64,000 nucleotides of DNA from an uncultured Rubrivirga sp. GTDB taxonomy: Bacteria > Actinomycetota > Actinomycetes > S36-B12. Where the stretch lies: assembly GCA_964595675.1 (NCBI GenBank), contig CAZQRR010000002.1, positions 8,246 through 72,245 of the forward strand, in the 5' to 3' direction. Below the pieces are notes generated by a model. That model saw nothing but the letters and a program-made list of their open reading frames with translations. It was not told the origin of the DNA and searched no databases. Position numbers and translations under genes: made by a program. Of this stretch, positions 3,913 to 22,595 are shown in pieces (position 1 is the stretch's first letter; the number at the start of each line of letters is the position of its first letter).

Positions 3913-4024
3913 GGGCCATCCCCCGGGCGCGCCGCAAGCATGGATCACGTCGGGCCCCGATGGACATATCGAACCGATACAAACTCGCCCCTTGCCCGTG
4001 GACCACGACCAGACTAGCCCTACG

Positions 4025-4036
4025 ATTGTTAACGAT
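4025..4036. promoter_or_regulatory. Operator-like AT-rich element ATTGTTAACGAT in the divergent SDR / amidohydrolase intergenic region
   Basis: An AT-rich patch (tacgATTGTTAACGATaaacaaagtttaga) in otherwise GC-rich DNA, 43 nt upstream of ATG 4079. It resembles the ATTGTC-GACAAT family seen elsewhere in the window. Confidence 0.4.
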
Positions 4037-4078
4037 AAACAAAGTTTAGACACCTGCCAGTCCAAGGGAAGGAGAGCC

Positions 4079-4996: not shown

Positions 4997-5003
4997 GCAA
5001 CGC

Positions 5004-7500: not shown

Positions 7501-8559
7501 TCAGGACGTCAGAATCCGCCCCCACGCCTGATCGAGACTGATCTCACCCCGCACCAGACCGATCGCGAGGCCGAGGACGAACAACTCCTGCTCGGGCGAA
7601 AGATAGGTGACCCGCGACACTCCGCGCACTCGCGCGGCGAGGATGGCTCCCGTATGCCGGTCCCAGCGATCGACGTCAACGAGCTCGCTGTCGCGTCGAT
7701 AGGCGCGTTCGAAAGCGCGACGTGCACCATCCAGGGACGTGGCTATCTGGGGGCGCGCTACGGCCTTGCACGCCAGGTGGGTGGACAGGTAGGCAACGTC
7801 AAGTGCCGGGTTCCCGACGTGCGCGACCTCCGCATCGAGCATCCATGCCCCGAATGAGGCGTCGGAGGGGCCCACCAGGACGTTCTTCGGTGAGAAGTCG
7901 CCATGGACAAGGCAGGTGCGGGCCTGGTCTAGCTCATCGGCAAGGGCGCGCAATTCCTGACCGATCTCGGGAACTTCGTTTGCCGTGGCGCGATGGAACG
8001 GGTCGGTGCGCAGGGTGCGCAGGCGATCGCCGGTGAGCAACACGTCGGGCAGAACGCTGGTGTCCCGGCTGTCCATGTGCCAGGCGGCAAGGGTGGTGCC
8101 GAGGTGCTCACCGATACGTGCGAGTCGCCCTGCCATGACGTCGGGGGAATCAGCATCTGCGTCGAGCATCTGACGTCGCCACTCGCTCCATCCGACAGGC
8201 GCGGCCTCAATGACGAGTACGGGAGCCGAGGGATGCCGCCAGACCACGCGCGGTACCGAGTCGGGTGTGATTGCGCCAAACCAAGTTAAGGCCGCGGCCT
8301 CAGCGAAGCCACGCGAGACGTCTGCCTCCCACAGAATAGCTGTACGCAATGTGGCCAAGGGTGCCTTGACCACGAGGCCGTGGGGATTCGCGTGGCGCAC
8401 TCCAGGCATCAGGTCATCCGGGCTAACTCGCCAGACCTCGCAGGACACTCCACCCGTCAAGGGCACGAGCAACGCATCACGGCTCAAGACTTCAGCCTCC
8501 TGCAAGTCTTGCAGCAGCATCTCGACGCCCAGCGCCTCGTCGGTCACAACATCCATCAT
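7501..8559 (-). CDS. Phosphotransferase-family kinase (APH / choline-kinase fold)
   Basis: 352 aa with the Brenner-type motif CLVHGDFSPKNVLV followed by DAEVAHVGNPALD. It is the last gene of the long minus-strand chain. Confidence 0.65.
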   Translation of the reverse strand: MMDVVTDEALGVEMLLQDLQEAEVLSRDALLVPLTGGVSCEVWRVSPDDLMPGVRHANPHGLVVKAPLATLRTAILWEADVSRGFAEAAALTWFGAITPDSVPRVVWRHPSAPVLVIEAAPVGWSEWRRQMLDADADSPDVMAGRLARIGEHLGTTLAAWHMDSRDTSVLPDVLLTGDRLRTLRTDPFHRATANEVPEIGQELRALADELDQARTCLVHGDFSPKNVLVGPSDASFGAWMLDAEVAHVGNPALDVAYLSTHLACKAVARPQIATSLDGARRAFERAYRRDSELVDVDRWDRHTGAILAARVRGVSRVTYLSPEQELFVLGLAIGLVRGEISLDQAWGRILTS

Positions 8560-8561
8560 TC

Positions 8562-9209
8562 TTAGGTGATCCGAGTACGCGAGAACGCGTAATGGGCAGC
8601 GCAGGCTTCACGGATCCTCGAGTCGTCAGCTTCTGCGATGGCCTCAACCATGTTCAGGTGGAGCATGGAGGGCGGACGTTGACGAATGGACGTGTCAGCA
8701 ACCTCTACAGGCTGCAAGTACAACCTGGTCTGGTCCGTGAGGTTCGTCGAGATCTCGACGAGTCGGGAATTGCCGCTGGCCGTAGCGAGCAGCACATGGA
8801 ACTCCAAATCGGCCGCAAGACCCTCCGCAAAACCTCCCTCGTCCCAGCACCTCTCAATGCGCTGCTGACCCTCCCGCAGTTCCTGAATGATTGACTCATC
8901 ACGCAGGCCAGCCACCAGCCGGCCAGCAGCGAGGTCAATCACTTCGCGAACATGGTAGATCTCGAGCAGATCAGAGTTAGTCACGACTCGAACCGTGATG
9001 CCCCGTCTGGGATTCACCACCACCAGACCTTCGGATTCGAGGACGAAGGCAGCCTCCCTCACCGAGCCGGCACTGACGCCGTACTGACCTGCGATCGCCC
9101 CCACATCGACTTTTTGTCCGGGAGCCAACTCACGCCCGAGGATCTGGGCGCGAAGTTTCCGGGCGATCAACTCCCTCAACGACTGGTGCTGAAGCATGGC
9201 TTCGGTCAT
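8562..9209 (-). CDS. GntR-family transcriptional regulator (FadR/FCD subfamily)
   Basis: The N-terminal winged HTH (LRAQILGRELAPGQKVDVGAIAGQYGVSAGSVREAAFVLESEGLVV) is followed by a helical FCD-like domain. Confidence 0.8.
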   Translation of the reverse strand: MTEAMLQHQSLRELIARKLRAQILGRELAPGQKVDVGAIAGQYGVSAGSVREAAFVLESEGLVVVNPRRGITVRVVTNSDLLEIYHVREVIDLAAGRLVAGLRDESIIQELREGQQRIERCWDEGGFAEGLAADLEFHVLLATASGNSRLVEISTNLTDQTRLYLQPVEVADTSIRQRPPSMLHLNMVEAIAEADDSRIREACAAHYAFSRTRIT

Positions 9210-9997
9210 GACAAAATTCTATGGTCCGCACGGCTCAATCTGACGGTGCCTTGGGTCCTGTACGCCCGAACCACCTCGAGCATCGGTAGTTCCCGGAGCC
9301 CCTTCACGATGTGGGCATGGGGAGGAGACTCAGTCCAGGTCACATTTCCTATGTGCAGCGAGCCCGTGCAGGTCCATGCCGACATCGGATAATTGACCAG
9401 CCCGATCTTCGTCGGGTGGCTCACCTCCACGCCTTGCCCGTCAACGCGCGGAACGTGTTTCCAGCCAAACCACGCGTCCGCAACGAGTTCTTCACGTAGC
9501 TCCTCGAGTTCCGAGGGTGACATCTCCCCTTCGTCCGCGAGGTTCATGCGGATCAGGTCGCGACCCTGGTCGCTGGCGGCGACGCTGAAGTGACCGTCAG
9601 CCGCCTCGGGATCGTCAACGTCCGCGTACAACTTGGGGATGCCCAAAATTTCACGTCCCCGGATAACGGCCTCGATATTGTTTTCCCACAGTATGAGTGC
9701 GAATGATCCATGGACTGGGCCGTCCTCACCGTGGAAGGTCGCAGCTACGTTGACTCCAAAGAGTCGGTACTCACCACCCGCCAAGAAATTCACGCCACGG
9801 CAACGCTGCATGTAGGCAGACACCAAAGGCTCCGGACCGGGCACGAAGGGTTCAGGAAGCAATTGCCGAATCGCCTCATTCGTCGACCGGTAACTCACCG
9901 TCAAGGTTCTGACGTCGGAGAACTCCCCAGCCGCATGCGGAGGCTGTGGCCCAAATGAAACGGGCATCATGTACGTCACACCAGAGTCAAAGCGCAT
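9206..9997 (-). CDS. Acetoacetate decarboxylase (ADC)-family protein
   Basis: 263 aa with LLPEPF, an ...E.LGIPK lysine motif and an overall beta-cone-like pattern. Its 3' end overlaps the start of the downstream gntR gene by 4 nt. Confidence 0.55.
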   Translation of the reverse strand: MRFDSGVTYMMPVSFGPQPPHAAGEFSDVRTLTVSYRSTNEAIRQLLPEPFVPGPEPLVSAYMQRCRGVNFLAGGEYRLFGVNVAATFHGEDGPVHGSFALILWENNIEAVIRGREILGIPKLYADVDDPEAADGHFSVAASDQGRDLIRMNLADEGEMSPSELEELREELVADAWFGWKHVPRVDGQGVEVSHPTKIGLVNYPMSAWTCTGSLHIGNVTWTESPPHAHIVKGLRELPMLEVVRAYRTQGTVRLSRADHRILS

Positions 9998-10008: not shown

Positions 10009-10467
10009 CTAGTGAGACGTTTGGTCCACGAGTTCAATGGAATTGCCATCTGGATCGGAGAGGAAGACGACGGTGACAGAACCAGTCTCTAGTGGAAACG
10101 TGACGGGTTCGGCGTCAAACTTCACACCTTTCGCCTTCAGTGTCTCGTAGGCCTCCTGAAGATTCTCCACGCTTAGGGCGAAGTGGGTTGCCCCGACGAC
10201 TCCTGGCGCCACAGCTTCCGAATCCTTCGGAAGTTCGAAGAACTCCAACAAGTCGATCAGGATGCCCGGTGTCTCAGGGGCGACAAGCCTCGTCGACTGC
10301 CCGCGCGCATTCTCGATTGCATTCGCCTTCTTGACATCTTCGGCCGCGAGCTGGTGCTGCTCGACTTGCGTGAGCCCTAGCAACCCGCAATAAAAGTCAA
10401 GAGACCGCTGCGTGTCACTCACCGTGACGGCGATGTGATCCAAACCTTTTACCTTCATCATTTTCAC
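10009..10467 (-). CDS. VOC / glyoxalase-family protein
   Basis: 152 aa with GLDHIAVTVSDTQRSLDFY...ATHFALSV...DPDGNSIEL. Confidence 0.75.
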   Translation of the reverse strand: MKMMKVKGLDHIAVTVSDTQRSLDFYCGLLGLTQVEQHQLAAEDVKKANAIENARGQSTRLVAPETPGILIDLLEFFELPKDSEAVAPGVVGATHFALSVENLQEAYETLKAKGVKFDAEPVTFPLETGSVTVVFLSDPDGNSIELVDQTSH

Positions 10468-10472: not shown

Positions 10473-11420
10473 CTAGTCGTTTCGTGCCGTGTCATGGGGA
10501 AGGCGAGGTGCGTGACCCAAGGCGGTCACGTCGTAGTCGCGGATCGGTAAGGCCGGATCGACGATCGGGGAAGTGTTGTACCCGGGAAGGATCATGTGGC
10601 CGGCATCAATGTTGATCTCGATCCCCGTGACGTGCTGGGACTCGTCCGACGCGAACCACATGGCCACATCGGCGACGTCAGCCGCAGACAAGGCGTTTCT
10701 CCCCTTGAGTGCAGTCCAGTTATGACCGGCCCGGATGTATTCCTCCCGCGAGACGTCTTCGCGCCCAAAGGTAGTCCGGTAGACGGCCGGGTTATCCGAC
10801 ATGGGCGTGGCGACGAGACCAGGGGCGACTGCGTTCACGCGAATTCCGTGGTCACCGAGTTCCAGCGCGAAGACTCGCATCAGTCCGAGGGCCCCGTGTT
10901 TCGCCGCAACGTATGCAGCAATGTTCCGAAGGGGCTCAACCGAATTCGTGGACGTCGTGATGATGATGCTTCCCTCTCCTCGGCGGATAAGGAATGGGGC
11001 GGTCGCCTTGACCGTCTTCCAGATTCCGGTCAGGTTGACGTCGAGCACTTCCTGCCAAACGTGCTCCGGCATTTCCAGCGTCGGCCCCCAACTCACGATT
11101 CCCGCGTTGGCGCACACGATGTCGATGCGCCCAAACTCGTCCCATACCTGCTGGGCGAAAGTCGAGAGTCCTTCTTGGTCACGTACATCGACGACTCCCG
11201 TCAAGCATCGTCGCCCTGATGACCTGATAAGCGCGGCCGTGGCCTGCAGGTCCGCCTCGGTTGCCGTCTCGTAGGCGAGATTCGGTGACCGGGCCGGCAC
11301 ATCGCAGATCGCGATGTCAGCTCCCTCGGAAGCGAACTTGGCCGCGATTGCGCGGCCTTGTCCACGTGCTCCTCCTGTGATGAAGCCGACTCTTCCATCC
11401 AAGCGCCCCACAGCGATCAC
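10473..11420 (-). CDS. Mycofactocin-coupled-type SDR oxidoreductase with a C-terminal extension
   Basis: ITGGARGQGRAIAAKFASEGADIAICDV plus the insert LAYETATEADL, YVAAKHG and IDAGHM. About 40 extra residues follow the usual C-terminus (315 aa in total). Confidence 0.7.
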   Translation of the reverse strand: MIAVGRLDGRVGFITGGARGQGRAIAAKFASEGADIAICDVPARSPNLAYETATEADLQATAALIRSSGRRCLTGVVDVRDQEGLSTFAQQVWDEFGRIDIVCANAGIVSWGPTLEMPEHVWQEVLDVNLTGIWKTVKATAPFLIRRGEGSIIITTSTNSVEPLRNIAAYVAAKHGALGLMRVFALELGDHGIRVNAVAPGLVATPMSDNPAVYRTTFGREDVSREEYIRAGHNWTALKGRNALSAADVADVAMWFASDESQHVTGIEINIDAGHMILPGYNTSPIVDPALPIRDYDVTALGHAPRLPHDTARND

Positions 11421-13609
11421 CCTCTCCGTCGAATTAACGACGAACTGTGCGTGTCTCGAATGGCTTGCTCGATGTCCCGATCCGACAAAAGAACGAAGTC
11501 TTCAAGGACCCTTGACACCGGCGTTGGGACATCCTTTCCAGTCACGAGTCGAACCGGAGTTCGCAGGTCAGTGAAATGCCACTCGTTGATCACCTGGGAA
11601 ATCCGTGGACCGAGGGCGTGGGATGCAGTCGCGTCTTCCACGATTGCCACAGCCCCCGTACGACGCACAGACTCACTCACCAATTCCCAGTCGATCCCCA
11701 GCGGATCGATTGTGCGCAGATCGATCACCTCGGCGTCGATTCCCTCAGTTGCCAATTGCTCGGCAATCGCATAAACGCGATGCACCGGATGCGACCAAGC
11801 AAGGACCGTCAGGTCACGACCCGGACGCACCACACGCGCCGTGCCGAGCGGAATGCGCGCATCCAGGTCGGGAATCGCCCCCTCCATCGTCCACAGCCGA
11901 TGGTGCTCGATTATCAGGACCGGGTCGATTCCGTTGATCGCCGAATTGAACAACCCTACGTAGTCCGCAGGCGTCGAGGGGGCGATGATCCGCCACCCAG
12001 GGAAGAGTGCGAAAAGCGCGGCAGGATCGCAACTGTGCTGCGGCCCGAATCCACGACCTTGTGCCGTACGAGTGCGCACCACGAGCGGTACGTCAACTTC
12101 CCCACCGAACATGTGCCGGGTCTTGGGCACGTGATTGAGCAATTGGTCGGCGGCTTCGAGGGCGAAGTCGGGGAACATCAACTCCACTACAGGCCGCATC
12201 CCCATCACCGCGGCCCCGAGAGCTAATCCACTGAAACCGTTCTCCGAGATGGGTGAGCTGAACACGCGGTCGGGAAAATTGCGGCATACGTGTCGCGTGG
12301 TGCCGTAGGCACCGCCGCGCAGATGTCCCACCTCCTCACCGATAACAAACACCTCCGGATCCCTCTGCATGGCTCGGTCATGAACCAGCGAAATCGCCTG
12401 CTGGTACGTCACGACGTCACCGGATGTTTCGGGTTCCTCTCCGCGCGCGCGGCTAGTGTTCGCCGAACGCACGCCGCGCAATGCATCAGCGGGATCCGGC
12501 CACGCATCTTCGCGGATCCGAGGCCCCCCGTCGCCGGACTCCACGACAACATCGATCGCAGCTGCCAGATCCGTCTCAACACGTGCACGGATCACATCAA
12601 TGGCGGCTTCGCCGAGAAGTCCGGAAGCGTGAAGAGCACCTGGGAAGTGGGTGATCGGATCACGGCCGCGCCACTCACTCTCCTCTTCTTTCGTGCGGTA
12701 GCGGTAGTCGCTGCCGGGCAGGCGCCCTGATTGGTGCAAGTAACGGTAGGTCTTCGCCTCGATCAGGACTGGGCCCTGTCCTGCAGCGGCGTGGGCACGC
12801 GCCTGCGCAACTCCCGCGCGCACCGCGAGCGGGTCCATACCGTCCACGATGACACCCGGCATGTCGTGCCCAGCTGCGCGAATGGCGATATCGGGAAATC
12901 CCGCGGTCTCGGCCACCGTGGTGGCTACGGAATAGAGGTTGTTCTCGACGACGAAGATCACCGGCAGCGACATCACGCGAGCCATCGCCATCGACTCATG
13001 AAGGGCCCCGATCGATGAGGCGCCGTCCCCGAAGAAGGCAAGCGCTACTCCCCCCGAACCGCGCTGGGCGAAGGTGAAGGCCGCACCCGTGCTCACGGGG
13101 ATACCTCCCCCGACGATCGCACTCGTGGCGAGCACACCCGCCTCGATGGAGCCAAGGTGCATGGAACCACCACGACCGCCAGCGAATCCGTACCGCAGGC
13201 CGAGGATCTCAGCCATGGTCTTCAAGATCGCCTGCCGGACCCCATCTGGAGTCGGTGCCTCGCCTGCAGGATCGAAATCACCGGCATCGTGCGCGGCACT
13301 GGCCACCACCCGAGCGAGCACATGGTGGTGCGCCCGGTGCGTGGAGGCGATCTGGTCCTGCCGCTGCAGGGCGGCGATGGCACCCACGGCTACCGCCTCC
13401 TGTCCGATGCTCGAATGGAGCGGCCCGTGCACCAACGTCTCGTTGTCCACCAACCATTGCTCGAAGGACCGGATCAGCAGCAACTGGTAGAGCATCGACG
13501 CTGCGTCGGCGGAGGTGACCCCGTCGAACGACGCCGTGGCTTCGACGAGATTGGGGTAGGACCGCCAGGGGAGGTTCTGATGGGCGGACAGGTCGACTGG
13601 CGTGCTCAT
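11417..13609 (-). CDS. Fused E1 alpha-beta thiamine-diphosphate-dependent dehydrogenase (2-oxoacid / acetoin dehydrogenase E1-like)
   Basis: 730 aa. The N-terminal half carries the TPP motif GDGASSIGALHESMAMARVMSLPVIFVVENNLYS. The C-terminal half is E1-beta-like (FPDRVFSSPISENGFSGLALGAAVMGMRPVVELMF). Confidence 0.8.
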   Translation of the reverse strand: MSTPVDLSAHQNLPWRSYPNLVEATASFDGVTSADAASMLYQLLLIRSFEQWLVDNETLVHGPLHSSIGQEAVAVGAIAALQRQDQIASTHRAHHHVLARVVASAAHDAGDFDPAGEAPTPDGVRQAILKTMAEILGLRYGFAGGRGGSMHLGSIEAGVLATSAIVGGGIPVSTGAAFTFAQRGSGGVALAFFGDGASSIGALHESMAMARVMSLPVIFVVENNLYSVATTVAETAGFPDIAIRAAGHDMPGVIVDGMDPLAVRAGVAQARAHAAAGQGPVLIEAKTYRYLHQSGRLPGSDYRYRTKEEESEWRGRDPITHFPGALHASGLLGEAAIDVIRARVETDLAAAIDVVVESGDGGPRIREDAWPDPADALRGVRSANTSRARGEEPETSGDVVTYQQAISLVHDRAMQRDPEVFVIGEEVGHLRGGAYGTTRHVCRNFPDRVFSSPISENGFSGLALGAAVMGMRPVVELMFPDFALEAADQLLNHVPKTRHMFGGEVDVPLVVRTRTAQGRGFGPQHSCDPAALFALFPGWRIIAPSTPADYVGLFNSAINGIDPVLIIEHHRLWTMEGAIPDLDARIPLGTARVVRPGRDLTVLAWSHPVHRVYAIAEQLATEGIDAEVIDLRTIDPLGIDWELVSESVRRTGAVAIVEDATASHALGPRISQVINEWHFTDLRTPVRLVTGKDVPTPVSRVLEDFVLLSDRDIEQAIRDTHSSSLIRRRG

Positions 13610-14370
13610 GCTGCTTCCTCAACACGGTCGGCGAACCATATTCGGTCGGCCACATTGCCCTGGATGTCCTCGATGACCATGGGGTCCAGACCCCACGTGT
13701 TGTCCTGCAGCAGACGCAGGTCCGCTGCGACCGCTGCCGCGTCACCCGTGACTGGGAAGTTCGATGCCCACATCACCCTGTCCGCACCGAACCCCGCCAC
13801 GATCGACCGCACCAGTGACTGCAGGGGTGCGTGCGGAGATGGGCACGTCATGCCTGCCCCGGACAGGGTGACGAGGACACGGGGGTCGGTCGCAAGCGTG
13901 AGGATCTCCTCTCCCCGAGTAATTACCTCGTCCGTCACCTGCGGGGAACCCAGGTGGGTGATCACGATCCGCCCGGGCCCGGGGGCGATGTCACCGAGGA
14001 CGTCGACAATTTCTGCCGTCCCGTCGGGGCAGTAGAGCACGAGATTCAGTCCTCGCTCGACTGCAGAAGATGCAATCCCAGGTGCGCTCACGAGCATCTC
14101 CGCGGTCAAGCGCAATCCGCGGAAGGTGGCCGCCTCCACGACCGCATCGAGGGCGGACTGTGCCGTGGAAGCCGTGGCGTCGATCATGGCAACACCGGCA
14201 AGGGTGTCCGGGCTACTCCGCACACAGGATTCGATGTACGAATTATCGAATTGCCCGAGGTGCTGCGCCAGGACAGCCTTCGAGATGCCGACGGTTCGCA
14301 TCATTGCCTGGACATCGGGCAGCGGCTGGAACTTGTCCACGCCGCAGTGTGTGTAGGCGTCGATGATCAT
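13606..14370 (-). CDS. Amidohydrolase-2 family protein
   Basis: 254 aa: MIIDAYTHCG...ITHLG...ASNFPV. It has 4-nt overlaps with both neighbours. Confidence 0.65.
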   Translation of the reverse strand: MIIDAYTHCGVDKFQPLPDVQAMMRTVGISKAVLAQHLGQFDNSYIESCVRSSPDTLAGVAMIDATASTAQSALDAVVEAATFRGLRLTAEMLVSAPGIASSAVERGLNLVLYCPDGTAEIVDVLGDIAPGPGRIVITHLGSPQVTDEVITRGEEILTLATDPRVLVTLSGAGMTCPSPHAPLQSLVRSIVAGFGADRVMWASNFPVTGDAAAVAADLRLLQDNTWGLDPMVIEDIQGNVADRIWFADRVEEAA

Positions 14371-15314
14371 CGATTCCCTGCTTCCTCGATTTGTGTCAGT
14401 GCCCGCATGACGGACAGCACGTCGCGGGCCTCGAAATCGGTGGGCTCCCCACTGCGCAGTCCCTTCAGGATCTGGGTGTTCTGGAACGTGAGATCGCGGA
14501 TGCTCGCACCCTCGACGATGAGTTCTCCCCCGGTTCCAAGGAGGGTGCCGGTGTCGAAGAGGTAATCACCCTGGGAGCCGCAGAAGCGCATTTGCCACGA
14601 CAGCGCCGATGCGTTGTAGGTCAGCGAATGACTGGCGATGCACCATGCATACTCACCCATGCCGAAGGACATGGTCATATCCATGGTCATGCCGAAATCC
14701 GGGTGGTCGATTCCTCTCAAGAGCGACGGGAATGCGATGTCTTGATTCCCGGTAACCCACAGGGTGGCATCGACGAGATGGCACGCGTGATGCCACAGTA
14801 GGTCGTCGACCCAAGTCCGCATTCCGGCGAAGCCCTCGTTGTTCCGCCGAGGGATGGCGAAGAAGCCCGTCACCTGCGAGATCACCTCGGACCCGGACGC
14901 GACGAGGTCGCGCATGTGGCGGATGCCGGCAAAGGAGCGCATTGTGTGGCAGGCAAATATCCGGCGGCCACGCTCCTCCGCGACCTGCACTATGTGCCGA
15001 GAATCGACTTCATTCACGGCGATCGGGATCTCCAGGATGACGTCCTTATCCGCTTCGAGTGCCCGGATCGCCTGGGCGGCATGGAATGAATTCGGTGAAC
15101 AAATGAGTGCCACATCCACCGCGGAATCGGACAGTGCGTCGTCAATGTCGACTCCAGCTCGCCGGATTCCCCACTTCTGAGCGAAAGCCAATGTGCGATC
15201 GGGGTCGCGTCCTACCGCCCACATCGGTTGGACACCGCCAAGTTCAGCGAATGTCGCAAGGTGCGCATCCGCGATCGCCCCCGGTCCGATGACCGCGATT
15301 CCCACACCAGTCAC
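14367..15314 (-). CDS. Gfo/Idh/MocA-family oxidoreductase
   Basis: N-terminal Rossmann segment GIAVIGPGAIADAHL and the EKD-like motif VILEIPIA. 315 aa. Confidence 0.7.
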   Translation of the reverse strand: MTGVGIAVIGPGAIADAHLATFAELGGVQPMWAVGRDPDRTLAFAQKWGIRRAGVDIDDALSDSAVDVALICSPNSFHAAQAIRALEADKDVILEIPIAVNEVDSRHIVQVAEERGRRIFACHTMRSFAGIRHMRDLVASGSEVISQVTGFFAIPRRNNEGFAGMRTWVDDLLWHHACHLVDATLWVTGNQDIAFPSLLRGIDHPDFGMTMDMTMSFGMGEYAWCIASHSLTYNASALSWQMRFCGSQGDYLFDTGTLLGTGGELIVEGASIRDLTFQNTQILKGLRSGEPTDFEARDVLSVMRALTQIEEAGNR

Positions 15315-15550
15315 GGCGCCTCAAAGACAGCGATGACTTGACCGACCGCAATCTGGTCATCAGGCTGCGCATCGAGGCGCACGACATGACCGGAGCACGG
15401 TGCAGGGATCTCAACGAGTGCCTTGTCCGCTTCGATCAAGGCCATCGGAGCGCCCTCCGGCACATGATCTCCTACGGACACCAGCCACTCGCTCAGGTAG
15501 AGTTCGGCGGGGTCGCCATTCATGGGCGGAACTGCGATGTCGATGCCCAT
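15311..15550 (-). CDS. Stand-alone lipoyl-attachment domain protein (79 aa)
   Basis: Runs from ATG 15550 to a stop at 15311. MGIDIAVPP...GAPMALIEADKALVEIPAPCSGHVV is the E2 lipoyl-domain pattern with the lysine in a DKA context. The upstream part of the 230-aa ORF overlaps the SDR gene in another frame and is rejected. Confidence 0.7.
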   Translation of the reverse strand: MGIDIAVPPMNGDPAELYLSEWLVSVGDHVPEGAPMALIEADKALVEIPAPCSGHVVRLDAQPDDQIAVGQVIAVFEAP

Positions 15551-15552: not shown

Positions 15553-16341
15553 TCACTGACCCGCTTCCGGCAGGCTCATCCCCGTCATCGCACCACCGTC
15601 GATGAAGAACTCCGATCCCGTCGAGTAGGTAGCGTCGAGGACCAGATAGCGGATGAGGCGTCCCGCCTCCGGCGGGTCGCCGATGCGTTGGACGGGCTGG
15701 GACTTGACCAATTCGGTCAACTCGCCGTGGAACGGTGCGGTCATCGGGGTCGCAAACGGACCGGGCACGACCACATGGACTCGGATCCCGTGCGGAGCGA
15801 GATCGATCGCAGCCGCCTTGGTGAGCCCGCGGATCGCCCACTTGCTCGCGACGTAGGCGGCCTGGTCCCCGTATCCGATGATGCCGCAGGTGGAGGAAAT
15901 GTTGATGATCACGCCACCGTGGCCCGCTGCGATCATCGCCGGGGCGACGGTGTTTATCCCCAGGAACGGACCGTTGAGATTGATGTCCTGGACTCGGCGC
16001 CAATTCTGGTAATCGTCCAACACCGTGCCAAAAGAGTGAACGCCCGCGTTGTTGATCAACACGTATGGCGCACCATGCTCAGCAACGACGTTGTCGACGA
16101 GTGCTCGCCACTGGACCTGATCCGTCACGTCCAGCCGCGCGAAACTCGCCCGGGACCCTAGATCACGAGCCAGGGTCCGCCCGTCGTCCTCGAGCACGTC
16201 GGCGACGACCACGTGCGCTCCCTCGTCGGCCAACGTTCGGACATACGCCTCACCCAGCCCCCGTGCCCCTCCCGTGACAATGGCTGTCTTGCCCTCAAGT
16301 GCCAACACGTCGATCCTCTCTGTCTCCCATCGCGCCCTCAT
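15553..16341 (-). CDS. Classical SDR oxidoreductase
   Basis: LEGKTAIVTGGARGLGEAY, NNAG, YVASKWA, PGPFATPM. Trimmed to ATG 16341 (262 aa). The exact start is uncertain. Confidence 0.75.
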   Translation of the reverse strand: MRARWETERIDVLALEGKTAIVTGGARGLGEAYVRTLADEGAHVVVADVLEDDGRTLARDLGSRASFARLDVTDQVQWRALVDNVVAEHGAPYVLINNAGVHSFGTVLDDYQNWRRVQDINLNGPFLGINTVAPAMIAAGHGGVIINISSTCGIIGYGDQAAYVASKWAIRGLTKAAAIDLAPHGIRVHVVVPGPFATPMTAPFHGELTELVKSQPVQRIGDPPEAGRLIRYLVLDATYSTGSEFFIDGGAMTGMSLPEAGQ

Positions 16342-16409: not shown

Positions 16410-17471
16410 TTATGATTTTCGATTGTCGACAATTATGCCTCCCTCCGAATCGATGGCTCGGATACATGCGCAACGATGATCCTGCCCAGTGACCGCCCTA
16501 AGTGGCGGCACCCTTTCAGAGCACTCCCCAACCGCTAGCCAGCACCGGGTTCTGAAGCGACAGCCACTCGGTGGATTCGCCGGGCTCGGCACGTCACCGC
16601 TAAGGACTATCCGCTCGCGGACTCCCCGGTCGCCAGGCGACTTGACCGGTGCAGCCGAAAGCAGGGCTTGGGAATACGGATGCAAGGGCTGCCTGAAGAT
16701 CTGGCTCGACCGCCCGTCCTCTACGACGCTGCCCAGGTACATGACGGCTAACTTCTCGGAGATCTCTTCAACGACGGAAAGATCATGGGAAATGAAGATC
16801 ATCGACAGGTCGTGCTCGTGCTGCAGATCACGAAGCAGGTTGATTATCTGCGCTTGTACCGACACGTCTAGAGCCGAGACAGGCTCATCAAGGATGAGTA
16901 CCTGAGGCCTAGATGCGAGTGCGCGAGCTATGCACACCCTTTGCCGCTGACCTCCAGAGAATTCGCGCGGGTAGCGATTCGCATCGGAGGCCCGCAGACC
17001 GACCTTCTCTAGCAACACCCCGACCTCCCCGTCCACAGACTTCCGCGAGGTTGTAAGTCGATGCACTCGCAGGGGTTCGCCGACCTGCTCCCCGACGGTC
17101 CGGCGCGGGGTCAGTGCAGCGTACGGATCCTGGAAGACCAGTTGAATTCGAGGGCGTACGGCTCTAAACCGCCTCAGCGACATGCTCAACACGTCCATTC
17201 CATCGAGCAGAATCTCACCTGACGATGGCTCCTCGAGGCGGACCAGGCAACGAGCGAGAGTCGACTTGCCGCATCCGGACTCACCCACAATTCCGAGAGT
17301 GGAGCCCCTAGCCAGATCGAAGGAGACGTCGTCCAGGGCACGAATGAGTCCGCGAGCCGACTTTCCGTCCCCTCCGTACCTGCTCGCAAAGACTTTCGAA
17401 ATACCGCGAACCGAAAGAGCGATATCCGACTCGCTGGCTTGATGGTCCGGTGCTCGAAGATCGTCAGACAT
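16410..17471 (-). CDS. ABC transporter ATP-binding protein (Opp/Dpp F-type)
   Basis: Walker A GESGCGKST, signature FSGGQRQR, Walker B LILDEPVSALD and the C-terminal oligopeptide-type extension. Confidence 0.85.
   Translation of the reverse strand: MSDDLRAPDHQASESDIALSVRGISKVFASRYGGDGKSARGLIRALDDVSFDLARGSTLGIVGESGCGKSTLARCLVRLEEPSSGEILLDGMDVLSMSLRRFRAVRPRIQLVFQDPYAALTPRRTVGEQVGEPLRVHRLTTSRKSVDGEVGVLLEKVGLRASDANRYPREFSGGQRQRVCIARALASRPQVLILDEPVSALDVSVQAQIINLLRDLQHEHDLSMIFISHDLSVVEEISEKLAVMYLGSVVEDGRSSQIFRQPLHPYSQALLSAAPVKSPGDRGVRERIVLSGDVPSPANPPSGCRFRTRCWLAVGECSERVPPLRAVTGQDHRCACIRAIDSEGGIIVDNRKS
16422..16433. promoter_or_regulatory. Perfect palindrome ATTGTCGACAAT (operator-like) between the ABC ATPase and enzyme genes
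   Basis: A 12-bp perfect palindrome lying in the last codons of the ATPase ORF, about 80 nt upstream of the SDR start. It is identical to the core of the 23575-23590 palindrome. Confidence 0.5.
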
Positions 17472-18516
17472 GCGGTTGTTCCACCTCAGCTGAGTACATA
17501 CAAGCTGCCCAGTGGTTAGAGCCGACCTGCATCAATGTGGGGGTTATTTCGCAGCAGTCGATGTGAGCAATTGAGCACCGCTCGGCGAATGCACATCCAC
17601 GGGAAACCTCCTGGGCGGAAATCGACCGCCCTGGTAGCTGGAAGAGGCGACCTTCTTCCGTCTTTGAACGTCCACCGGGAATTGACCGCATAAGCCCGAG
17701 CGTGTACGGGTGTCGCGGATTTGCGAATACGTCCGCAACCGGCCCCCTTTCAACCACAGCTCCTGCGTACATAACGACCACGGAGTCCGCCAACTCCGCG
17801 ACAACCCCCAAGTCATGCGTGATCAAGACAACGCTCATACGTCTCTCGTCACGAAGACGCTGAATCAGTCTCAGGATCTGTGCCTGTACCGTCACATCTA
17901 GCGCAGTGGTTGGTTCGTCGGCGATCAACAGAACCGGATTGGCGGCAATAGCCATAGCAATGGCTACTCTTTGGCACATTCCCCCTGAAAACTGATGGGG
18001 ATAGTGACGAACCCGAAGTGCCGCATCGGGAATTCCGACGAGATCCAACAATTCAACACTGCGCCGGCGCGCTTCGCGCCAAGAAAGCCCGTCCCGAACC
18101 ACCAGAGTCTCACTGATCTGATACCCCGTTGTGAAGACTGGATCAAGAGAAGCTTGAGCGTCCTGTTGGATATAGCCCACTAGGTTCGCGGCCGACGATG
18201 CTCGGCCAGCGGAAGTTCCAGCGTTCGGTTCGACGATCTCAATGCATTCGGCACTCACAGTGGTGACGCTCGGATCGAGTAGTCCTAGGATTGCAGAGAA
18301 CACCGAAGTCTTACCCGATCCGGATTCGCCTACAACGGCGAGTATCTCCCCCGGCCCCACGTCCAAATCGATTCCTCGCACCGCAGAGACACTCCCGCTC
18401 TCTGTTTCGAAGGACACATGCAGCCCGCGCACCCGCAGGACGGAGTCAGCAGAGTCAAATGCAGCCTCAGGACTCATGTTGATCACCATTTGGGTCCCCT
18501 GCTGCGTTTCGGGCAT
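17464..18516 (-). CDS. ABC transporter ATP-binding protein (Opp/Dpp D-type)
   Basis: Walker [29 protein letters not shown]. The start is uncertain (18477-18516) and the ORF overlaps the permease 3' end. Confidence 0.85.
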
Positions 18517-19531
18517 CAGTTTCGCTCGACTTACCGCGCGATCGCTTTCGTCCTAGAGCCCGGCGGCGGCGCGTCACGAGCTCCGTTCGGCCTTTCGGAT
18601 CCGTTACCAACCTCGCCCAATTCGCAGTGAGGTTCAGGGAAAGTGCCGTAAGAAAAATCATCAATCCTGGAATAGCCACGATCCACCAGGCCGTGGCAAT
18701 GTAGGAACGGCCCTCCCCCAACATCGAGCCCCACGATGGTGTGGGCGGCTGGATTCCGAAGCCGAGAAAACTGAGAGCAGCCTCACCGATGATGATGGTT
18801 GCGCACTCGAGAGTCGCCAAGACTAACAGCGGCGCCGTCATACTCGGGAAAATGTGGCGCGTCATGATCTGCAGATTTGTTGCGCCAACGACTCTTGCCG
18901 CATCAACGTGGGTGGCACTCTTTTGTGACAAGACCAGGCTTCGCGAAACCCTTGCGTAGATCATCCACTTGACGATCGCCAATACGAGGATGACGTTCCA
19001 GAAACCCGGTCCTAGAACAAACAAAACCAGGAGAGCGATTAGCAGGAAGGGAAGGCTCATTTGCAGGTCGACAAATCGCATAACGATGTCGTCAAACCTG
19101 CCGCCGAAATAGCCGGCTAGTACACCCACAACTATGCCGAAGATCCCCGACAGGAGAACGGTGAGTGCCGCCACGAGAATCGATACGCGAGCGCCGTAGA
19201 TTATCCGAGAGAGAAGATCTCGCCCGAGAGGATCGGTTCCGAGCACGTGCGGAGGCGCCCCAGGATCAACACCGGGAGTCAAGGGTGGTTTGTTTCGCAT
19301 CAGGAGATCTTGAGCATTCGGGTCGTATGGGGCGACGACCTCAGCGGCAACGGCGAAGACAACCAACAGAGCCAGAAAACTCAAGGAGATAATGACAAAC
19401 GGCTCCCTGCTGAGGAGACGCATGGTATTCGCACGTTCCGCAGCGCCAAGCCTTGGCTTAGGAGGCGGCGGCGTGCCATGTGCCTCCCGATCCGTCACTG
19501 GACTACTCCGTGGAGCGCCTTCATGTCTCAC
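18467..19531 (-). CDS. ABC transporter permease (Opp/Dpp C-type)
   Basis: Multiple TM segments with an EAA-like loop. GTG 19531 forms a GTGA overlap with the upstream permease stop. ATG 19423 is an alternative start. The 405-aa ORF-track start is rejected. Confidence 0.75.
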   Translation of the reverse strand: MRHEGAPRSSPVTDREAHGTPPPPKPRLGAAERANTMRLLSREPFVIISLSFLALLVVFAVAAEVVAPYDPNAQDLLMRNKPPLTPGVDPGAPPHVLGTDPLGRDLLSRIIYGARVSILVAALTVLLSGIFGIVVGVLAGYFGGRFDDIVMRFVDLQMSLPFLLIALLVLFVLGPGFWNVILVLAIVKWMIYARVSRSLVLSQKSATHVDAARVVGATNLQIMTRHIFPSMTAPLLVLATLECATIIIGEAALSFLGFGIQPPTPSWGSMLGEGRSYIATAWWIVAIPGLMIFLTALSLNLTANWARLVTDPKGRTELVTRRRRALGRKRSRGKSSETDARNAAGDPNGDQHES

Positions 19532-20454: not shown

Positions 20455-20527
20455 ACTCCATTCGTTCCACCACCCACGTCGGGTGAGGTTTGAGTCCCGC
20501 CGCGGACTTCACTCCCATGTCACCGAT

Positions 20528-20564
20528 GAGAGGGTGCCGCACTCGGCTTATGCGGCACCCTCTC
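20528..20564 (-). other. Intercistronic stem-loop (14-bp perfect stem, 9-nt loop) between the SBP and permease genes
   Basis: GAGAGGGTGCCGCA (20528-20541) pairs with TGCGGCACCCTCTC (20551-20564). It sits in the 202-nt SBP-permease gap and is not followed by a U-tract. Confidence 0.6.
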
Positions 20565-20656
20565 TCATCATCGTCGTCTCGATACTCCGATATCGCTGGT
20601 ATCAAAGGCTTCCTGGATACCTCCTGGACGAAATCGGCTCGACCCGAACGACTCCC

Positions 20657-22444: not shown

Positions 22445-22554
22445 GTCTTCCCTGATCGGAGCACCCGGGAGCGAGTTGCGTTGATCCGTTATCATCTTGT
22501 TACGCGTCGTTGGAGTACGAACCCCGGCGGCACGCACCGATCACTCGGTACCGT

Positions 22555-22568
22555 TGTCAACTGTCAAC
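22555..22568. promoter_or_regulatory. Direct repeat TGTCAAC-TGTCAAC (operator-like)
   Basis: Two abutting TGTCAAC heptamers 28 nt upstream of ATG 22596. The same heptamer forms the palindromes at 33853 and 41956-41986. Confidence 0.45.
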
Positions 22569-22595
22569 ACGGAATCCAAGGCGCGAGGGGTATCC

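What the first reader, a model, noticed from the sequence alone, without database searches (positions are those of the whole stretch)
11417..15550. Fused E1 alpha-beta TPP dehydrogenase plus a free-standing 79-aa lipoyl carrier, with no E2 core or E3 in the window
Seen: one 730-aa ORF joins an E1-alpha half (GDGASS...VVENNLYS) to an E1-beta half. Two genes further along the same overlapping chain, a 79-aa ORF (15550 to 15311) consists only of a lipoyl-attachment domain (LIEADKALVEIPAP). I recognise no acyltransferase catalytic core and no dihydrolipoamide dehydrogenase anywhere in the 64 kb.

Established: 2-oxoacid and acetoin dehydrogenase systems normally need E2 with its catalytic core, plus E3.

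Inference: this is a minimal E1-plus-mobile-lipoyl-carrier system, with H-protein-like logic. Its acyl-dihydrolipoyl intermediate would be resolved by the interleaved amidohydrolase and Gfo/Idh/MocA enzymes or by the mycofactocin-type SDR. This is the best candidate here for an undescribed system.
Basis: partly seen in the sequence, partly recalled or inferred. Interest (0 to 1): 0.7.

Follow-up and report, generated by a model that had tools for sequence, protein, structure and literature searches.

The report
E1 enzyme with free lipoyl carrier
A catabolic operon of a freshwater actinobacterium pairs a fused thiamine-dependent E1 dehydrogenase with a stand-alone 79-residue lipoyl carrier protein and has no E2 core; the same pairing recurs in Chloroflexota, so it looks like an uncharacterised, stripped-down relative of the pyruvate/acetoin dehydrogenase complexes.

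Summary
ORF 11417-13609 (-) is a fused E1 alpha-beta protein. ORF 15311-15550 (-) is only an E2p-type lipoyl domain. Nothing in the 64 kb encodes an E2 acyltransferase core, a peripheral-subunit-binding domain or an E3.

The small ORF is a real gene. It is fixed at 79 codons, has dN/dS of 0.1-0.5, an invariant lipoyl lysine (K43) in 62 homologues, and a confident lipoyl-domain model with K43 at the hairpin tip.

The pairing is conserved. At least 7 actinobacterial loci keep SDR-Lip-Gfo-Amidohydro_2-E1. Eight Chloroflexota loci carry MBL-E1(alpha,beta)-Lip92-E1(alpha-beta)-Lip79. None has E2 or E3 within 8-10 kb where the contig extends that far. More distant fused E1s (42-45% identity) are followed by a full E2 or an AcoC-type E2, so the orphan carrier looks like a derived, core-less form.

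The Gfo protein is PmdC/LigC-like and the amidohydrolase is LigI-like, which suggests a lactol dehydrogenase plus lactonase pair. The mycofactocin SDR, VOC and ADC genes are absent from orthologous loci. How the acyl-dihydrolipoyl carrier is discharged is unresolved: hydrolysis, or a housekeeping E2 acting in trans.

Verdict: a new variant of a known kind, moderately interesting and directly testable.

The parts
11417..13609 (-). Fused E1 alpha-beta (730 aa), a TPP-dependent dehydrogenase component.
   Evidence: E1_dh + Transket_pyr + Transketolase_C in one chain. PDH E1 beta and alpha NCBIfam models match below their cut-offs. PDB E1 beta and alpha chains align to residues 400-720 and 128-364. 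The active-site loop YRxxHQ[SN]G is shared with E2-linked fused E1s. Homologues of 62-89% identity sit in the same synteny.
15311..15550 (-). Free-standing lipoyl carrier (79 aa; 81 aa if started at GTG 15556). Predicted lipoyl-lysine is K43 in the motif EADKA.
   Evidence: PF00364 E=9.5e-15. Full-length alignment to the E. coli AceF lipoyl domains, with DKA aligned. K43 is invariant in 18 and in 62 orphan homologues. dN/dS is 0.1-0.5 with no indels. AF2 pLDDT is 92.7 with K43 in the hairpin between strands 35-41 and 44-49. Foldseek's best matches are E2p lipoyl domains, TM 0.93 and 0.81.
15553..16308 (-). SDR1 (251 aa), a secondary-alcohol dehydrogenase and first enzyme gene of the conserved core. 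Its stop abuts or overlaps the carrier start.
   Evidence: adh_short E=1.6e-51. Gene call in L001. 81-91% identical in orthologous loci. Best PDB hits are Rv2002 and 3alpha,20beta-hydroxysteroid dehydrogenase.
14367..15314 (-). Gfo/Idh/MocA + OxRdtase_C oxidoreductase (315 aa), PmdC/LigC-like lactol/aldehyde dehydrogenase.
   Evidence: Pfam. PDB 9azo PmdC E=6.3e-36 over residues 4-312. PmdC is the CHMS dehydrogenase (PMC11489326). It stays fused to the E1 start even in L003/L004, which lack the carrier.
13606..14370 (-). Amidohydro_2 hydrolase (254 aa), LigI-like. Probably a lactonase; alternatively the thioesterase that discharges the carrier.
   Evidence: PF04909 E=2.6e-15. PDB 2ffi, a putative 2-pyrone-4,6-dicarboxylate hydrolase, E=4e-9. 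Present in every actinobacterial carrier-containing locus whose contig reaches that position (L088 and L098 end before it) and absent from L003/L004, which lack the carrier.
8562..9209 (-). GntR/FCD regulator, conserved directly after E1 in orthologous loci.
   Evidence: Pfam. Synteny in L005, L006, L008 and L089.
7501..8559 (-). APH-fold kinase-like protein, the conserved last gene of the cluster.
   Evidence: PF01636 E=1.9e-9. 64-78% identical and syntenic in L005, L006 and L089. No PDB sequence relative.
10473..11411 (-). Mycofactocin-coupled-type SDR. Accessory, specific to this genome's version of the operon.
   Evidence: TIGR03971 315 bits against a cut-off of 300. No orthologue between E1 and GntR in L005, L006, L008 or L089.
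10009..10458 (-). VOC/glyoxalase-fold protein (accessory here). This family is recurrently linked to fused E1s.
   Evidence: PF00903 E=9e-20. A VOC gene lies within 4 kb of the fused E1 in at least 25 of 83 loci, including between E1 and E2 in Bordetella and Achromobacter.
9206..9997 (-). Acetoacetate-decarboxylase-family protein (accessory).
   Evidence: PF06314 E=6.7e-39. PDB 3cmb E=4.6e-34. Absent from orthologous clusters.
16410..22354 (-). Opp/Dpp-type ABC importer upstream in the same direction: SBP_bac_5 20657-22354, permeases 19528-20442 and 18467-19498, ATPases 17464-18489 and 16410-17471.
   Evidence: Pfam. Gene calls in L001. Replaced by an MFS transporter in L005, L006 and L097.

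Best explanation
The 79-aa protein is the dedicated, diffusible lipoyl 'swinging arm' of the fused E1 encoded in the same translationally coupled, GntR-controlled catabolic operon.

Proposed steps:
1. The imported substrate (unknown; alicyclic or sugar-like) is oxidised by the SDR(s) to a 2-oxo or alpha-hydroxy-keto compound.
2. The TPP-dependent E1 decarboxylates it, or cleaves it as acetoin-dehydrogenase-type E1s cleave acyloins.
3. E1 transfers the acyl group plus two electrons to lipoyl-K43 of the carrier.
4. The carrier has no E2 core and no E3-binding domain, so it must shuttle between separate enzymes, as the H-protein does in glycine cleavage.
5. The carrier is re-oxidised by the cell's general dihydrolipoyl dehydrogenase.
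6. The carrier is discharged without a dedicated acyltransferase core.

For step 6 I slightly favour CoA-independent hydrolysis. That means either a co-varying metal hydrolase (Amidohydro_2 here, an MBL-fold enzyme in Chloroflexota) or self-lactonisation of a hydroxy-acyl thioester. The alternative is a housekeeping E2 core acting in trans.

The PmdC/LigC-like Gfo enzyme most likely oxidises an aldehyde or lactol on the carbon skeleton, possibly the fragment that E1 releases.

What is shown: gene content, synteny, selection on the carrier, the lipoyl fold and lysine, and the absence of E2/E3.
What is inferred: lipoylation itself, acyl transfer from E1 to the carrier, the substrate, the discharge step and re-oxidation.
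For: Identity of the pair:
- E1 and lipoyl-domain identities are well above Pfam thresholds.
- The carrier gene is under purifying selection and has a fixed length.
- K43 is invariant in 62 orphan homologues down to about 30% identity.
- The AF2 model is confident and places K43 at the hairpin tip. Its best structural matches are E2p lipoyl domains.

Conserved pairing:
- Every orphan carrier whose context I inspected lies within two genes of an E1. This covers the actinobacterial loci L001, L005/L008, L006, L088-L090, L097 and L098 and the Chloroflexota loci L007, L015, L020, L033, L091, L092, L095 and L096.
- In Chloroflexota each of two E1s has its own carrier.
- Carrier-linked E1s cluster together in a UPGMA tree, although carrier-less E1s (L003, L010-L012) fall in the same cluster.

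Derivation from canonical systems:
- More distant fused E1s are followed by a complete lipoyl + E3_binding + 2-oxoacid_dh E2, or by an AcoC-type lipoyl + E3_binding + hydrolase protein.
- They share the same active-site loop. The family is therefore lipoyl-dependent, and the orphan form is a derived, core-less version.

Absence of E2:
- No PF00198 or PSBD sequence in any frame of the window.

Feasibility:
- An isolated lipoyl domain is acylated by E1o at 99 per second. It also supports the full reaction with a separately expressed E2 catalytic domain and E3 (PMC5986005).

Hydrolase co-variation:
- Amidohydro_2 or MBL is present in every carrier-bearing locus whose contig reaches the relevant position.
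- tblastn finds no Amidohydro_2 homologue in the carrier-less clade members L003/L004 and L010-L012. Full gene calls for L003/L004 show no hydrolase of any fold; the L010-L012 neighbours were not domain-annotated, so another hydrolase fold is not excluded there.
Against: - No experiment shows lipoylation or acyl transfer.
- The rest of the genome could not be examined. An E2 core, possibly a lipoyl-less one, and an Lpd elsewhere cannot be excluded. About half of all fused-E1 loci have no lipoyl partner in cis at all.
- The closest clade members L003/L004 (68% E1 identity) and L010-L012 lack a local carrier. These E1s can therefore apparently work with a lipoyl domain encoded elsewhere, or without one.
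- The amidohydrolase has an ordinary alternative role as lactonase partner of the PmdC-like dehydrogenase.
- The MBL protein belongs to the uncharacterised UPF0173 group.
- The substrate is unknown.
Confidence: 0.45

Rival explanations
1. Split but otherwise ordinary complex. E1 acylates the small carrier, the housekeeping E2 catalytic core (PDH/ODH) transfers the acyl group to CoA in trans, and the housekeeping Lpd re-oxidises the carrier. The product is an acyl-CoA.
For: - Separately expressed lipoyl domain + E2 catalytic domain + E1 + E3 reconstitute the overall reaction (PMC5986005).
- Actinobacterial OdhA already depends on lipoyl domains supplied in trans by E2p (bioRxiv 10.1101/2020.07.24.212647).
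- E3 is unlinked in three of the four canonical fused-E1 loci I annotated.
- Many fused E1s have no E2 in cis.
Against: - It does not explain why a dedicated core and PSBD would be lost while the lipoyl domain is kept under selection in two phyla, with one carrier per E1 in Chloroflexota.
- E2 cores are acyl-specific (established knowledge).
- No E2 lies within 8-10 kb in any orthologous locus where the contig extends that far.
Confidence: 0.3
2. One reading: the acyl-dihydrolipoyl intermediate is resolved by the interleaved Gfo/Idh/MocA enzyme and/or the mycofactocin-type SDR, for example by reductive release.
For: The genes are translationally coupled to the carrier and to E1. Gfo-E1 coupling persists in L003/L004.
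Against: - The Gfo protein is a full-length PmdC/LigC homologue, which acts on lactols and aldehydes (PMC11489326).
- It persists in L003/L004, where there is no carrier to resolve.
- The mycofactocin SDR is absent from orthologous loci and from all Chloroflexota modules.
Confidence: 0.07
3. The small ORF is a decaying remnant of an E2 gene, or a gene-calling artefact, with no function.
For: It diverges faster than its neighbours: 38% identity in L006 against 73% for E1. The Lip92 type ends in a linker-like PGE..PDEIP tail, which suggests origin by truncation of an E2.
Against: dN/dS is 0.1-0.5, exactly 79 codons are kept with no indels or stops, K43 is invariant in 62 sequences from two phyla, the gene is translationally coupled, and the top 120 database hits are all short orphan proteins, almost all exactly 79 or 92 aa.
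Confidence: 0.03
4. The protein is a biotin carboxyl carrier, or a GcvH-like lipoyl relay or assembly protein unrelated to E1.
For: Biotinyl and lipoyl domains share a fold, and BCCP structures appear among the Foldseek hits. There are weak GCV_H and BCCP profile hits.
Against: - The motif is EADKA, not the biotin motif EAMKM (established knowledge).
- The best sequence and structure matches are E2p lipoyl domains.
- GCV_H scores 21.2, below its 22.2 cut-off.
- No biotin carboxylase, carboxyltransferase or lipoate-ligase gene is in the window.
- The gene is invariably linked to E1 genes.
Confidence: 0.03

Closest known systems
2-oxoacid dehydrogenase complexes with heterotetramer-type E1 (PDH/BCKDH), including the annotated 'alpha-ketoacid dehydrogenase subunit alpha/beta' + '2-oxo acid dehydrogenase subunit E2' gene pairs
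   Same: The same three E1 domains, TPP motif and active-site loop, and an E2p-type lipoyl domain with DKA lysine. Homologous fused E1s at 42-45% identity sit directly upstream of a complete E2.
   Different: Here the lipoyl domain is a separate 79-aa protein. There is no acyltransferase core, no E3/E1-binding domain and therefore no scaffold. The carrier gene lies upstream of E1, separated from it by two other enzyme genes.
Acetoin dehydrogenase enzyme system (AcoA/AcoB/AcoC/AcoL)
   Same: Alpha-beta-type E1, and association with SDR alcohol dehydrogenases. A relative (L040, Roseovarius) has an AcoC-type partner with an alpha/beta-hydrolase domain instead of the classical E2 core. This shows the family tolerates non-canonical partners and may cleave acyloins.
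   Different: AcoC still carries a catalytic domain and a PSBD fused to the lipoyl domain; the protein here carries nothing else. The substrate here is unknown.
Glycine cleavage system (P, H, T, L proteins)
   Same: The same logic: a small free lipoyl protein visited in turn by a decarboxylase, a discharging enzyme and dihydrolipoyl dehydrogenase, with no structural core (established knowledge; five classical lipoate-dependent systems are listed in PMC6067878).
   Different: The H-protein belongs to a different family (PF01597, which this protein misses at 21.2 against 22.2 bits). The loading enzyme there is PLP-dependent, not TPP-dependent. No equivalent of the T-protein has been identified here.
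Corynebacteriales OdhA/E2p mixed PDH/ODH system
   Same: An actinobacterial precedent for an E1 that uses a lipoyl domain supplied in trans (bioRxiv 10.1101/2020.07.24.212647).
   Different: In OdhA the E2 catalytic domain is kept (fused to E1) and the lipoyl domain is borrowed. Here the lipoyl domain is kept and the catalytic domain is missing.
QncN/QncL/QncM and SclQ1-4 glycolyl-unit systems in Streptomyces natural-product clusters
   Same: E1/transketolase-like TPP enzyme plus a lipoyl domain working outside central metabolism. They convert a ketose phosphate into a lipoyl-bound C2 acyl unit (PMC6335953). This is a model for E1 action on sugars, which fits the transaldolase and polyol-dehydrogenase context in Chloroflexota.
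   Different: Those systems keep an acyltransferase domain fused to the lipoyl domain and deliver the acyl group to an ACP. No acyltransferase or ACP is present here.
LbpA lipoate-binding proteins of the sHdr sulfur-oxidation system
   Same: A single-domain lipoyl protein genetically tied to a non-classical partner enzyme set (PMC6067878).
   Different: LbpA is GcvH-like, works with Hdr-like proteins and comes with its own lipoate ligases. Here the domain is E2p-like, the partner is an E1, and no maturation genes are linked.

Membership tests
2-oxoacid/acetoin dehydrogenase multienzyme complex (E1-E2-E3) | TPP-dependent E1 with E1_dh, Transket_pyr and Transketolase_C domains and a GDG...NN TPP motif | tested here: met
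   All three domains lie in one 730-aa chain and the motif GDGASS...ENNLYS is present.
2-oxoacid/acetoin dehydrogenase multienzyme complex (E1-E2-E3) | Lipoyl domain with the modifiable lysine in a DKA turn | tested here: met
   PF00364 E=9.5e-15. Aligns with AceF lipoyl domains. K43 invariant. Model pLDDT 92.7 with K43 at the hairpin. TM 0.93 and 0.81 to E2p lipoyl domains.
2-oxoacid/acetoin dehydrogenase multienzyme complex (E1-E2-E3) | E2 acyltransferase catalytic core (PF00198, or the AcoC-type hydrolase domain) covalently linked to the lipoyl domain | tested here: not met
   The carrier is 79 aa with no further domain. No PF00198 among 59 ORFs. tblastn with four verified E2s finds only the lipoyl segment. 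Absent from all orthologous and Chloroflexota loci sampled.
2-oxoacid/acetoin dehydrogenase multienzyme complex (E1-E2-E3) | Peripheral-subunit (E1/E3) binding domain PF02817 | tested here: not met
   No PF02817 hit in the window and no tblastn match to PSBD segments. It is present in the E2s of distant relatives.
2-oxoacid/acetoin dehydrogenase multienzyme complex (E1-E2-E3) | Dihydrolipoyl dehydrogenase (E3) available | not testable with these tools
   None in the window: the only strong Pyr_redox_2 match (above the Pfam cut-off) is an OYE fusion at 52036-54192 without Pyr_redox_dim (a GMC oxidoreductase at 1612-3054 also has a marginal 29.4-bit hit). E3 is unlinked in three of the four canonical relatives examined.
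2-oxoacid/acetoin dehydrogenase multienzyme complex (E1-E2-E3) | Carrier is actually lipoylated and reductively acylated by E1 | not testable with these tools
   Requires mass spectrometry and in vitro reconstitution.
Glycine cleavage H-protein (GcvH/LbpA type) | Match to GCV_H (PF01597) above threshold over the full domain of about 120 aa | tested here: not met
   21.2 bits against a cut-off of 22.2, covering only residues 24-61. NF002270 E=3.5e-4, far below its cut-off.
Biotin carboxyl carrier protein | Biotinylation motif (E-A-M-K-M) and linked biotin carboxylase/carboxyltransferase genes | tested here: not met
   The motif is EADKA. BCCP models score E>=2e-6, well below their cut-offs. No carboxylase domains in the window.
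Protocatechuate 4,5-cleavage enzymes LigC/PmdC and LigI (for the interleaved genes) | Full-length homology to CHMS dehydrogenase and to PDC hydrolase | tested here: inconclusive
   Gfo against 9azo PmdC gives E=6e-36 over residues 4-312. Amidohydro_2 against 2ffi gives E=4e-9 over residues 15-215. The homology is clear but I did not compute percent identity for either alignment. No other protocatechuate-pathway genes (LigAB, LigJ, LigK) were seen, so they are same-family paralogues rather than orthologues.

The most novel reading that the evidence does not exclude
This is a further kind of lipoate-dependent system: a scaffold-less, CoA-independent 'E1 + diffusible lipoyl carrier + hydrolase' module.

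The E1 oxidatively cleaves a 2-oxo acid, acyloin or ketose made from an imported alicyclic or sugar substrate. The acyl-dihydrolipoyl carrier is discharged by hydrolysis (Amidohydro_2 in Actinomycetota, an MBL-fold enzyme in Chloroflexota) or by self-lactonisation. General Lpd then recycles the carrier.

It would have arisen from classical E1-E2 operons by loss of the E2 core, and it is widespread in freshwater Actinomycetota and Anaerolineae.
Probability: 0.22. Interest if true: 0.8.

Novelty: new variant of a known kind. Interest (0 to 1): 0.55.

Why it matters
As of 2018 only five lipoate-dependent enzyme systems had been characterised, plus the sHdr/LbpA case described in that paper (PMC6067878). 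All 2-oxoacid-type systems are built around an E2 that joins the lipoyl arm to an acyltransferase.

A conserved operon type that keeps the E1 and the arm but has lost the acyltransferase and the docking domain poses a concrete question: how is an acyl-lipoyl thioester resolved without E2? That question can be answered with four or five recombinant proteins.

The acyl mass found on the 79-aa carrier would also reveal the unknown substrate of a catabolic island in abundant, mostly uncultured freshwater Actinomycetota and Chloroflexota.

If the answer is simply the housekeeping E2 acting in trans, the finding is still useful. It would extend the in-trans lipoyl sharing known from Corynebacteriales to catabolic E1s. 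It would also correct database labels: JGI names these 79-92-aa proteins 'E2 component'.

Tried and rejected
- **First AF2 run.** Using the 9-sequence alignment A3 gave pLDDT 45 and was unusable. I repeated it with 62 sequences.
- **Profile search of 1.84 billion representatives** with the carrier alignment. The top 150 were dominated by multi-lipoyl E2s and only two were about 79 aa. It says little about how common orphan carriers are.
- **Metagenome scan.** The narrow alignment A3 returned only 3 loci, all with the same synteny.
- **Apparent MBL-E1alpha-E1beta fusion in L020** (1008-aa ORF). The junction segments do not align with homologues and look like out-of-frame translation in a long-read MAG. 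I did not use it as evidence.
- **Small ORFs next to the planctomycete E1s** (L010-L012) checked as possible divergent carriers. They are low-complexity non-genes.
- **Eight literature searches** for orphan, free-standing or stand-alone lipoyl proteins, fused E1, lipoyl carrier and truncated E2 found no description of this arrangement.
- **BCCP, GcvH and pseudogene readings** were rejected (see rival explanations).
- **Substrate identification** from SDR1, Gfo, Amidohydro_2, ADC, the kinase and the SBP did not converge.

Full report
**1. What is in the sequence**

The finding lies in a long minus-strand gene chain. Pfam scans give, in transcription order:
- an Opp/Dpp-type ABC importer (22354-16410)
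- an SDR (16308-15553)
- a 79-aa Biotin_lipoyl protein (15550-15311; E=9.5e-15)
- a Gfo/Idh/MocA + OxRdtase_C oxidoreductase (15314-14367)
- an Amidohydro_2 hydrolase (14370-13606)
- a 730-aa protein with E1_dh, Transket_pyr and Transketolase_C in one chain (13609-11417; E=1.6e-56, 2.6e-30, 1.1e-30)
- a mycofactocin-coupled-type SDR, a VOC/glyoxalase protein and an acetoacetate-decarboxylase-family protein
- a GntR/FCD regulator and an APH-fold kinase-like protein

The six genes from the first SDR to the second SDR are joined by 4-nt start/stop overlaps at four of the five junctions. At the first junction (SDR1-Lip) there is a 2-nt gap or a GTGA overlap.

I scanned all 59 large ORFs of the window against Pfam.
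- None contains a 2-oxoacid_dh catalytic domain, an E3_binding domain or an E3-type Pyr_redox_dim.
- No biotin carboxylase or lipoate ligase is present.
- Six-frame tblastn with four Pfam-verified E2 proteins from related loci hit only the lipoyl ORF (15538-15374, E=3e-5).

**2. Is the 79-aa ORF a real lipoyl protein?**

- Its best NCBIfam matches are the lipoyl domains of PDH, acetoin-DH and ODH E2 proteins. BCCP and GcvH models score far lower.
- It aligns end to end with each of the three lipoyl domains of E. coli AceF, with its EADKA on the DKA of the lipoyl-lysine turn.
- Public gene callers call it, as 81 aa from a GTG that overlaps the SDR stop.
- Six orthologous copies all have exactly 79 codons without indels, with pairwise dN/dS of 0.1-0.5 (dS is often saturated).
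- K43 is invariant in 18 orphan homologues from two phyla and in a 62-sequence alignment going down to about 30% identity.
- With that alignment AlphaFold gives pLDDT 92.7 and places D42-K43 in the turn between strands 35-41 and 44-49.
- Foldseek's best hits are E2p lipoyl domains (TM 0.93, and 0.81 to 1qjo).
- The gene does diverge faster than its neighbours: 38% identity in L006, where E1 is 73% and the SDR 81%.

**3. Source organism and conservation of the arrangement**

The closest genome hit is a Candidatus Nanopelagicales MAG (82% E1 identity), so the window comes from a freshwater actinobacterium.

The order SDR1-Lip-Gfo-Amidohydro_2-E1-GntR-APH is kept in L005/L008, L006 and L089. It is also kept in L088, L090, L097 and L098 as far as those contigs reach. 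E1 identity runs from 62% to 89%. None of these loci has an E2 or E3 within 8-10 kb where the contig extends that far. The mycofactocin SDR, VOC and ADC genes of the window are not part of this conserved core.

A second lineage, Chloroflexota (Limnocylindrales, Chloroflexia and Anaerolineae MAGs), carries a different operon built on the same principle:
- The order is MBL-fold hydrolase, E1 alpha, E1 beta, Lip (92 aa), fused E1 alpha-beta (47-52% identical to the window's) and Lip (79 aa).
- It is divergent from a GntR-SDR-Zn-ADH-transaldolase-sugar-ABC unit.
- I saw it in L007, L015, L020, L033, L091, L092, L095 and L096, again without E2 or E3 within 10 kb.

A profile search with the orphan alignment returned, as its top 120 hits, only small proteins, almost all exactly 79 or 92 aa. 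NCBI calls them 'lipoyl domain-containing protein' or 'hypothetical', and JGI calls them 'E2 component'. The orphan carrier is thus a populated but uncharacterised family.

**4. Relation to canonical systems**

I classified 83 fused-E1 loci with an iterated lipoyl-domain HMM.
- 25 have a 410-500-aa lipoyl protein close downstream of E1, usually the next gene. These are Proteobacteria such as Achromobacter, Bordetella, Paracoccus, Brucella and Roseovarius, and some Actinobacteria.
- 3 have a lipoyl ORF that is cut off by the contig end.
- 8 have orphan carriers.
- 47 have no lipoyl gene in the locus.

Pfam confirms that the downstream proteins are complete E2s (Biotin_lipoyl + E3_binding + 2-oxoacid_dh) in L045, L052 and L082. 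In Roseovarius (L040) the partner is AcoC-type (Biotin_lipoyl + E3_binding + alpha/beta hydrolase). Annotated plasmid homologues read 'alpha-ketoacid dehydrogenase subunit alpha/beta' followed by '2-oxo acid dehydrogenase subunit E2'.

Carrier-linked E1s cluster together in a UPGMA tree, along with the carrier-less L003/L004 and the planctomycete L010-L012. They share the active-site loop YRxxHQ[SN]G with the E2-linked E1s.

Three points suggest that the orphan carrier arose from an E1-E2 operon by loss of the PSBD and core. This is inference.
- In Chloroflexota the carrier sits directly after E1.
- The Lip92 type ends in a linker-like PGE..PDEIP tail.
- The E2-linked relatives have the full E2 in the same position.

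**5. The interleaved genes**

- The Gfo protein aligns over its full length with PmdC (PDB 9azo, E=6.3e-36). PmdC is the dehydrogenase that oxidises the cyclic hemiacetal form of CHMS to the lactone PDC (PMC11489326).
- The amidohydrolase's only PDB sequence relative is a putative PDC (lactone) hydrolase of the LigI type (2ffi, E=4e-9).
- The two therefore look like an ordinary lactol-dehydrogenase + lactonase pair acting on the carbon skeleton.
- SDR1 is closest to Rv2002 and 3alpha,20beta-hydroxysteroid dehydrogenases, which act on alicyclic secondary alcohols.

Two observations keep a hydrolytic discharge role open for the amidohydrolase.
- A metal-dependent hydrolase accompanies the carrier in both lineages, although of different fold: Amidohydro_2 versus a UPF0173-type MBL.
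- In L003/L004, which keep the overlapping Gfo-E1 pair but lack the carrier, the amidohydrolase is missing as well.

I did not use an apparent MBL-E1 fusion in L020, because it is a frameshift artefact.

**6. Mechanism**

Shown:
- a fused E1 and a selected, E2p-type lipoyl-only protein are co-transcribed and co-conserved
- the locus and its orthologues lack an E2 core, a PSBD and an E3
- relatives of the E1 work with classical E2s

From established biochemistry: E1s of this class transfer the TPP-bound acyl group reductively to a lipoyl-lysine. Published experiments show that an isolated lipoyl domain is an excellent E1 substrate (99 per second) and can complete the cycle with a separately expressed E2 catalytic domain and E3 (PMC5986005).

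Inferred: the carrier here is a diffusible shuttle loaded by its E1, comparable to the H-protein, and is re-oxidised by the general Lpd.

The discharge step is open. My estimates for the whole locus, which sum to 1:
- about 0.45 that discharge needs no E2 core at all. Within this, roughly 0.35 is hydrolysis by the co-varying hydrolase or self-lactonisation of a hydroxy-acyl thioester, and about 0.1 is some other E2-independent route
- about 0.3 that a housekeeping E2 core acts in trans
- the remaining quarter is spread over the minor rival readings and possibilities I have not thought of

Independently of the discharge step, I put the claim that E1 and the carrier form a functional donor-acceptor pair at about 0.8.

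The substrate is unknown. The neighbouring genes (SDRs, Gfo, polyol dehydrogenases, transaldolase, sugar or peptide-type importers) fit either a 2-oxo acid or an acyloin/ketose cleavage of the acetoin-DH or QncN/QncL kind (PMC6335953).

**7. Caveats**

- The rest of the genome is not visible, so E2, Lpd and lipoate-attachment enzymes elsewhere are assumed, not shown.
- About half of all fused-E1 loci lack any lipoyl partner in cis, so 'no E2 nearby' alone is not unusual. What is unusual is the dedicated lipoyl-only gene.
- The closest carrier-less relatives (L003/L004, L010-L012) show that the E1 clade is not strictly tied to a local carrier.
- The UPGMA tree is a crude clustering, not a tested phylogeny.

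**8. Novelty and verdict**

Eight full-text searches found no description of an E1 with a free-standing E2-type lipoyl domain and no E2. A 2018 review statement counts five characterised lipoate-dependent complexes, plus LbpA/sHdr (PMC6067878). The nearest precedent for separating the lipoyl domain from the catalytic domain is the mirror-image case of actinobacterial OdhA.

I rate this a new variant of a known kind. It is real, conserved and directly testable, with moderate interest (0.55). The most novel reading is a CoA-independent, scaffold-less E1-carrier-hydrolase system, which I put at about 0.22.

Noticed in passing
window 10009-10458 (-); also L045:12148-12642, L093:7154-7708, L003:5294-5740: A small VOC/glyoxalase-fold protein lies within 4 kb of the fused E1 in at least 25 of 83 loci across phyla, including between E1 and E2 in Bordetella and Achromobacter. 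An SDR is nearby in about 50 of 83 loci. This points to an old functional link between E1, VOC and SDR whose role is unknown.
   Followed up: partly
L091:7116-12701 (also L092, L095, L096, L007, L015, L033): Chloroflexota operon MBL(UPF0173-like)-E1alpha-E1beta-Lip92-E1alphabeta-Lip79: two E1s, each followed by its own lipoyl-only protein. It lies next to GntR, SDR, Zn-ADH, transaldolase/FSA and sugar ABC transporter genes.
   Followed up: partly
window 10473-11411 (-) and 3082-4104 (-): The SDR after E1 passes the NCBIfam cut-off for mycofactocin-coupled SDRs (TIGR03971, 315 against 300 bits), yet no mycofactocin biosynthesis gene is in the 64 kb. This SDR, the VOC and the ADC-like gene are insertions relative to orthologous clusters. 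I did not check whether the second long SDR at 3082-4104 is also of this type.
   Followed up: partly
window 22497-26578 (+): A divergent cluster of a xylose-isomerase-like TIM barrel, a split transketolase (Transketolase_N 23605-24450; Transket_pyr + Transketolase_C 24387-25394) and a cytochrome P450. It is a second, E1-unrelated TPP C-C cleavage system right next to the importer.
   Followed up: no
window 28957-33775 (-): MFS transporter, SDR, an IolD-like TPP enzyme (TPP_enzyme_N/M/C) and an HpcH aldolase. The same block sits directly upstream of the SDR-Lip-Gfo-Amh2-E1 core in L005, L006, L097 and L098, so the two TPP systems may serve one pathway.
   Followed up: no
window 4079-7498 (+): A convergent trio, Amidohydro_2, DMFA2_C (N,N-dimethylformamidase beta-like) and SGL/gluconolactonase, is conserved next to the APH-like gene in L001, L005 and L006. 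My own ORF picking missed the SGL gene and chose a spurious minus-strand ORF at 6458-7105.
   Followed up: partly
window 15311-15550 compared with L006:8051-8290: The carrier evolves much faster than its operon partners: 38% identity against 73% for E1, 81% for SDR1 and 64% for Gfo. The lysine turn and the length stay fixed.
   Followed up: yes
L020:4066-7092: An apparent 1008-aa MBL-E1alpha-E1beta fusion in a Chloroflexia MAG is an artefact. The junction segments do not align with homologues and read like out-of-frame translation.
   Followed up: yes
window 52036-54192 (-): An Old-Yellow-Enzyme (Oxidored_FMN) + Pyr_redox_2 fusion of 718 aa. It is the only strong Pyr_redox_2 match (above the Pfam cut-off) in the window and is not an E3, since it has no dimerisation domain.
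   Followed up: no
window 34692-51211 and 59325-63659: The window is unusually dense in four 2-Hacid_dh dehydrogenases, six xylose-isomerase-like TIM barrels, three HpcH aldolases, a second Opp-type ABC importer and an extra enolase-family gene. In L006 an apionate-lactonase-like gene is nearby. The whole window looks like a sugar or sugar-acid catabolic island.
   Followed up: no
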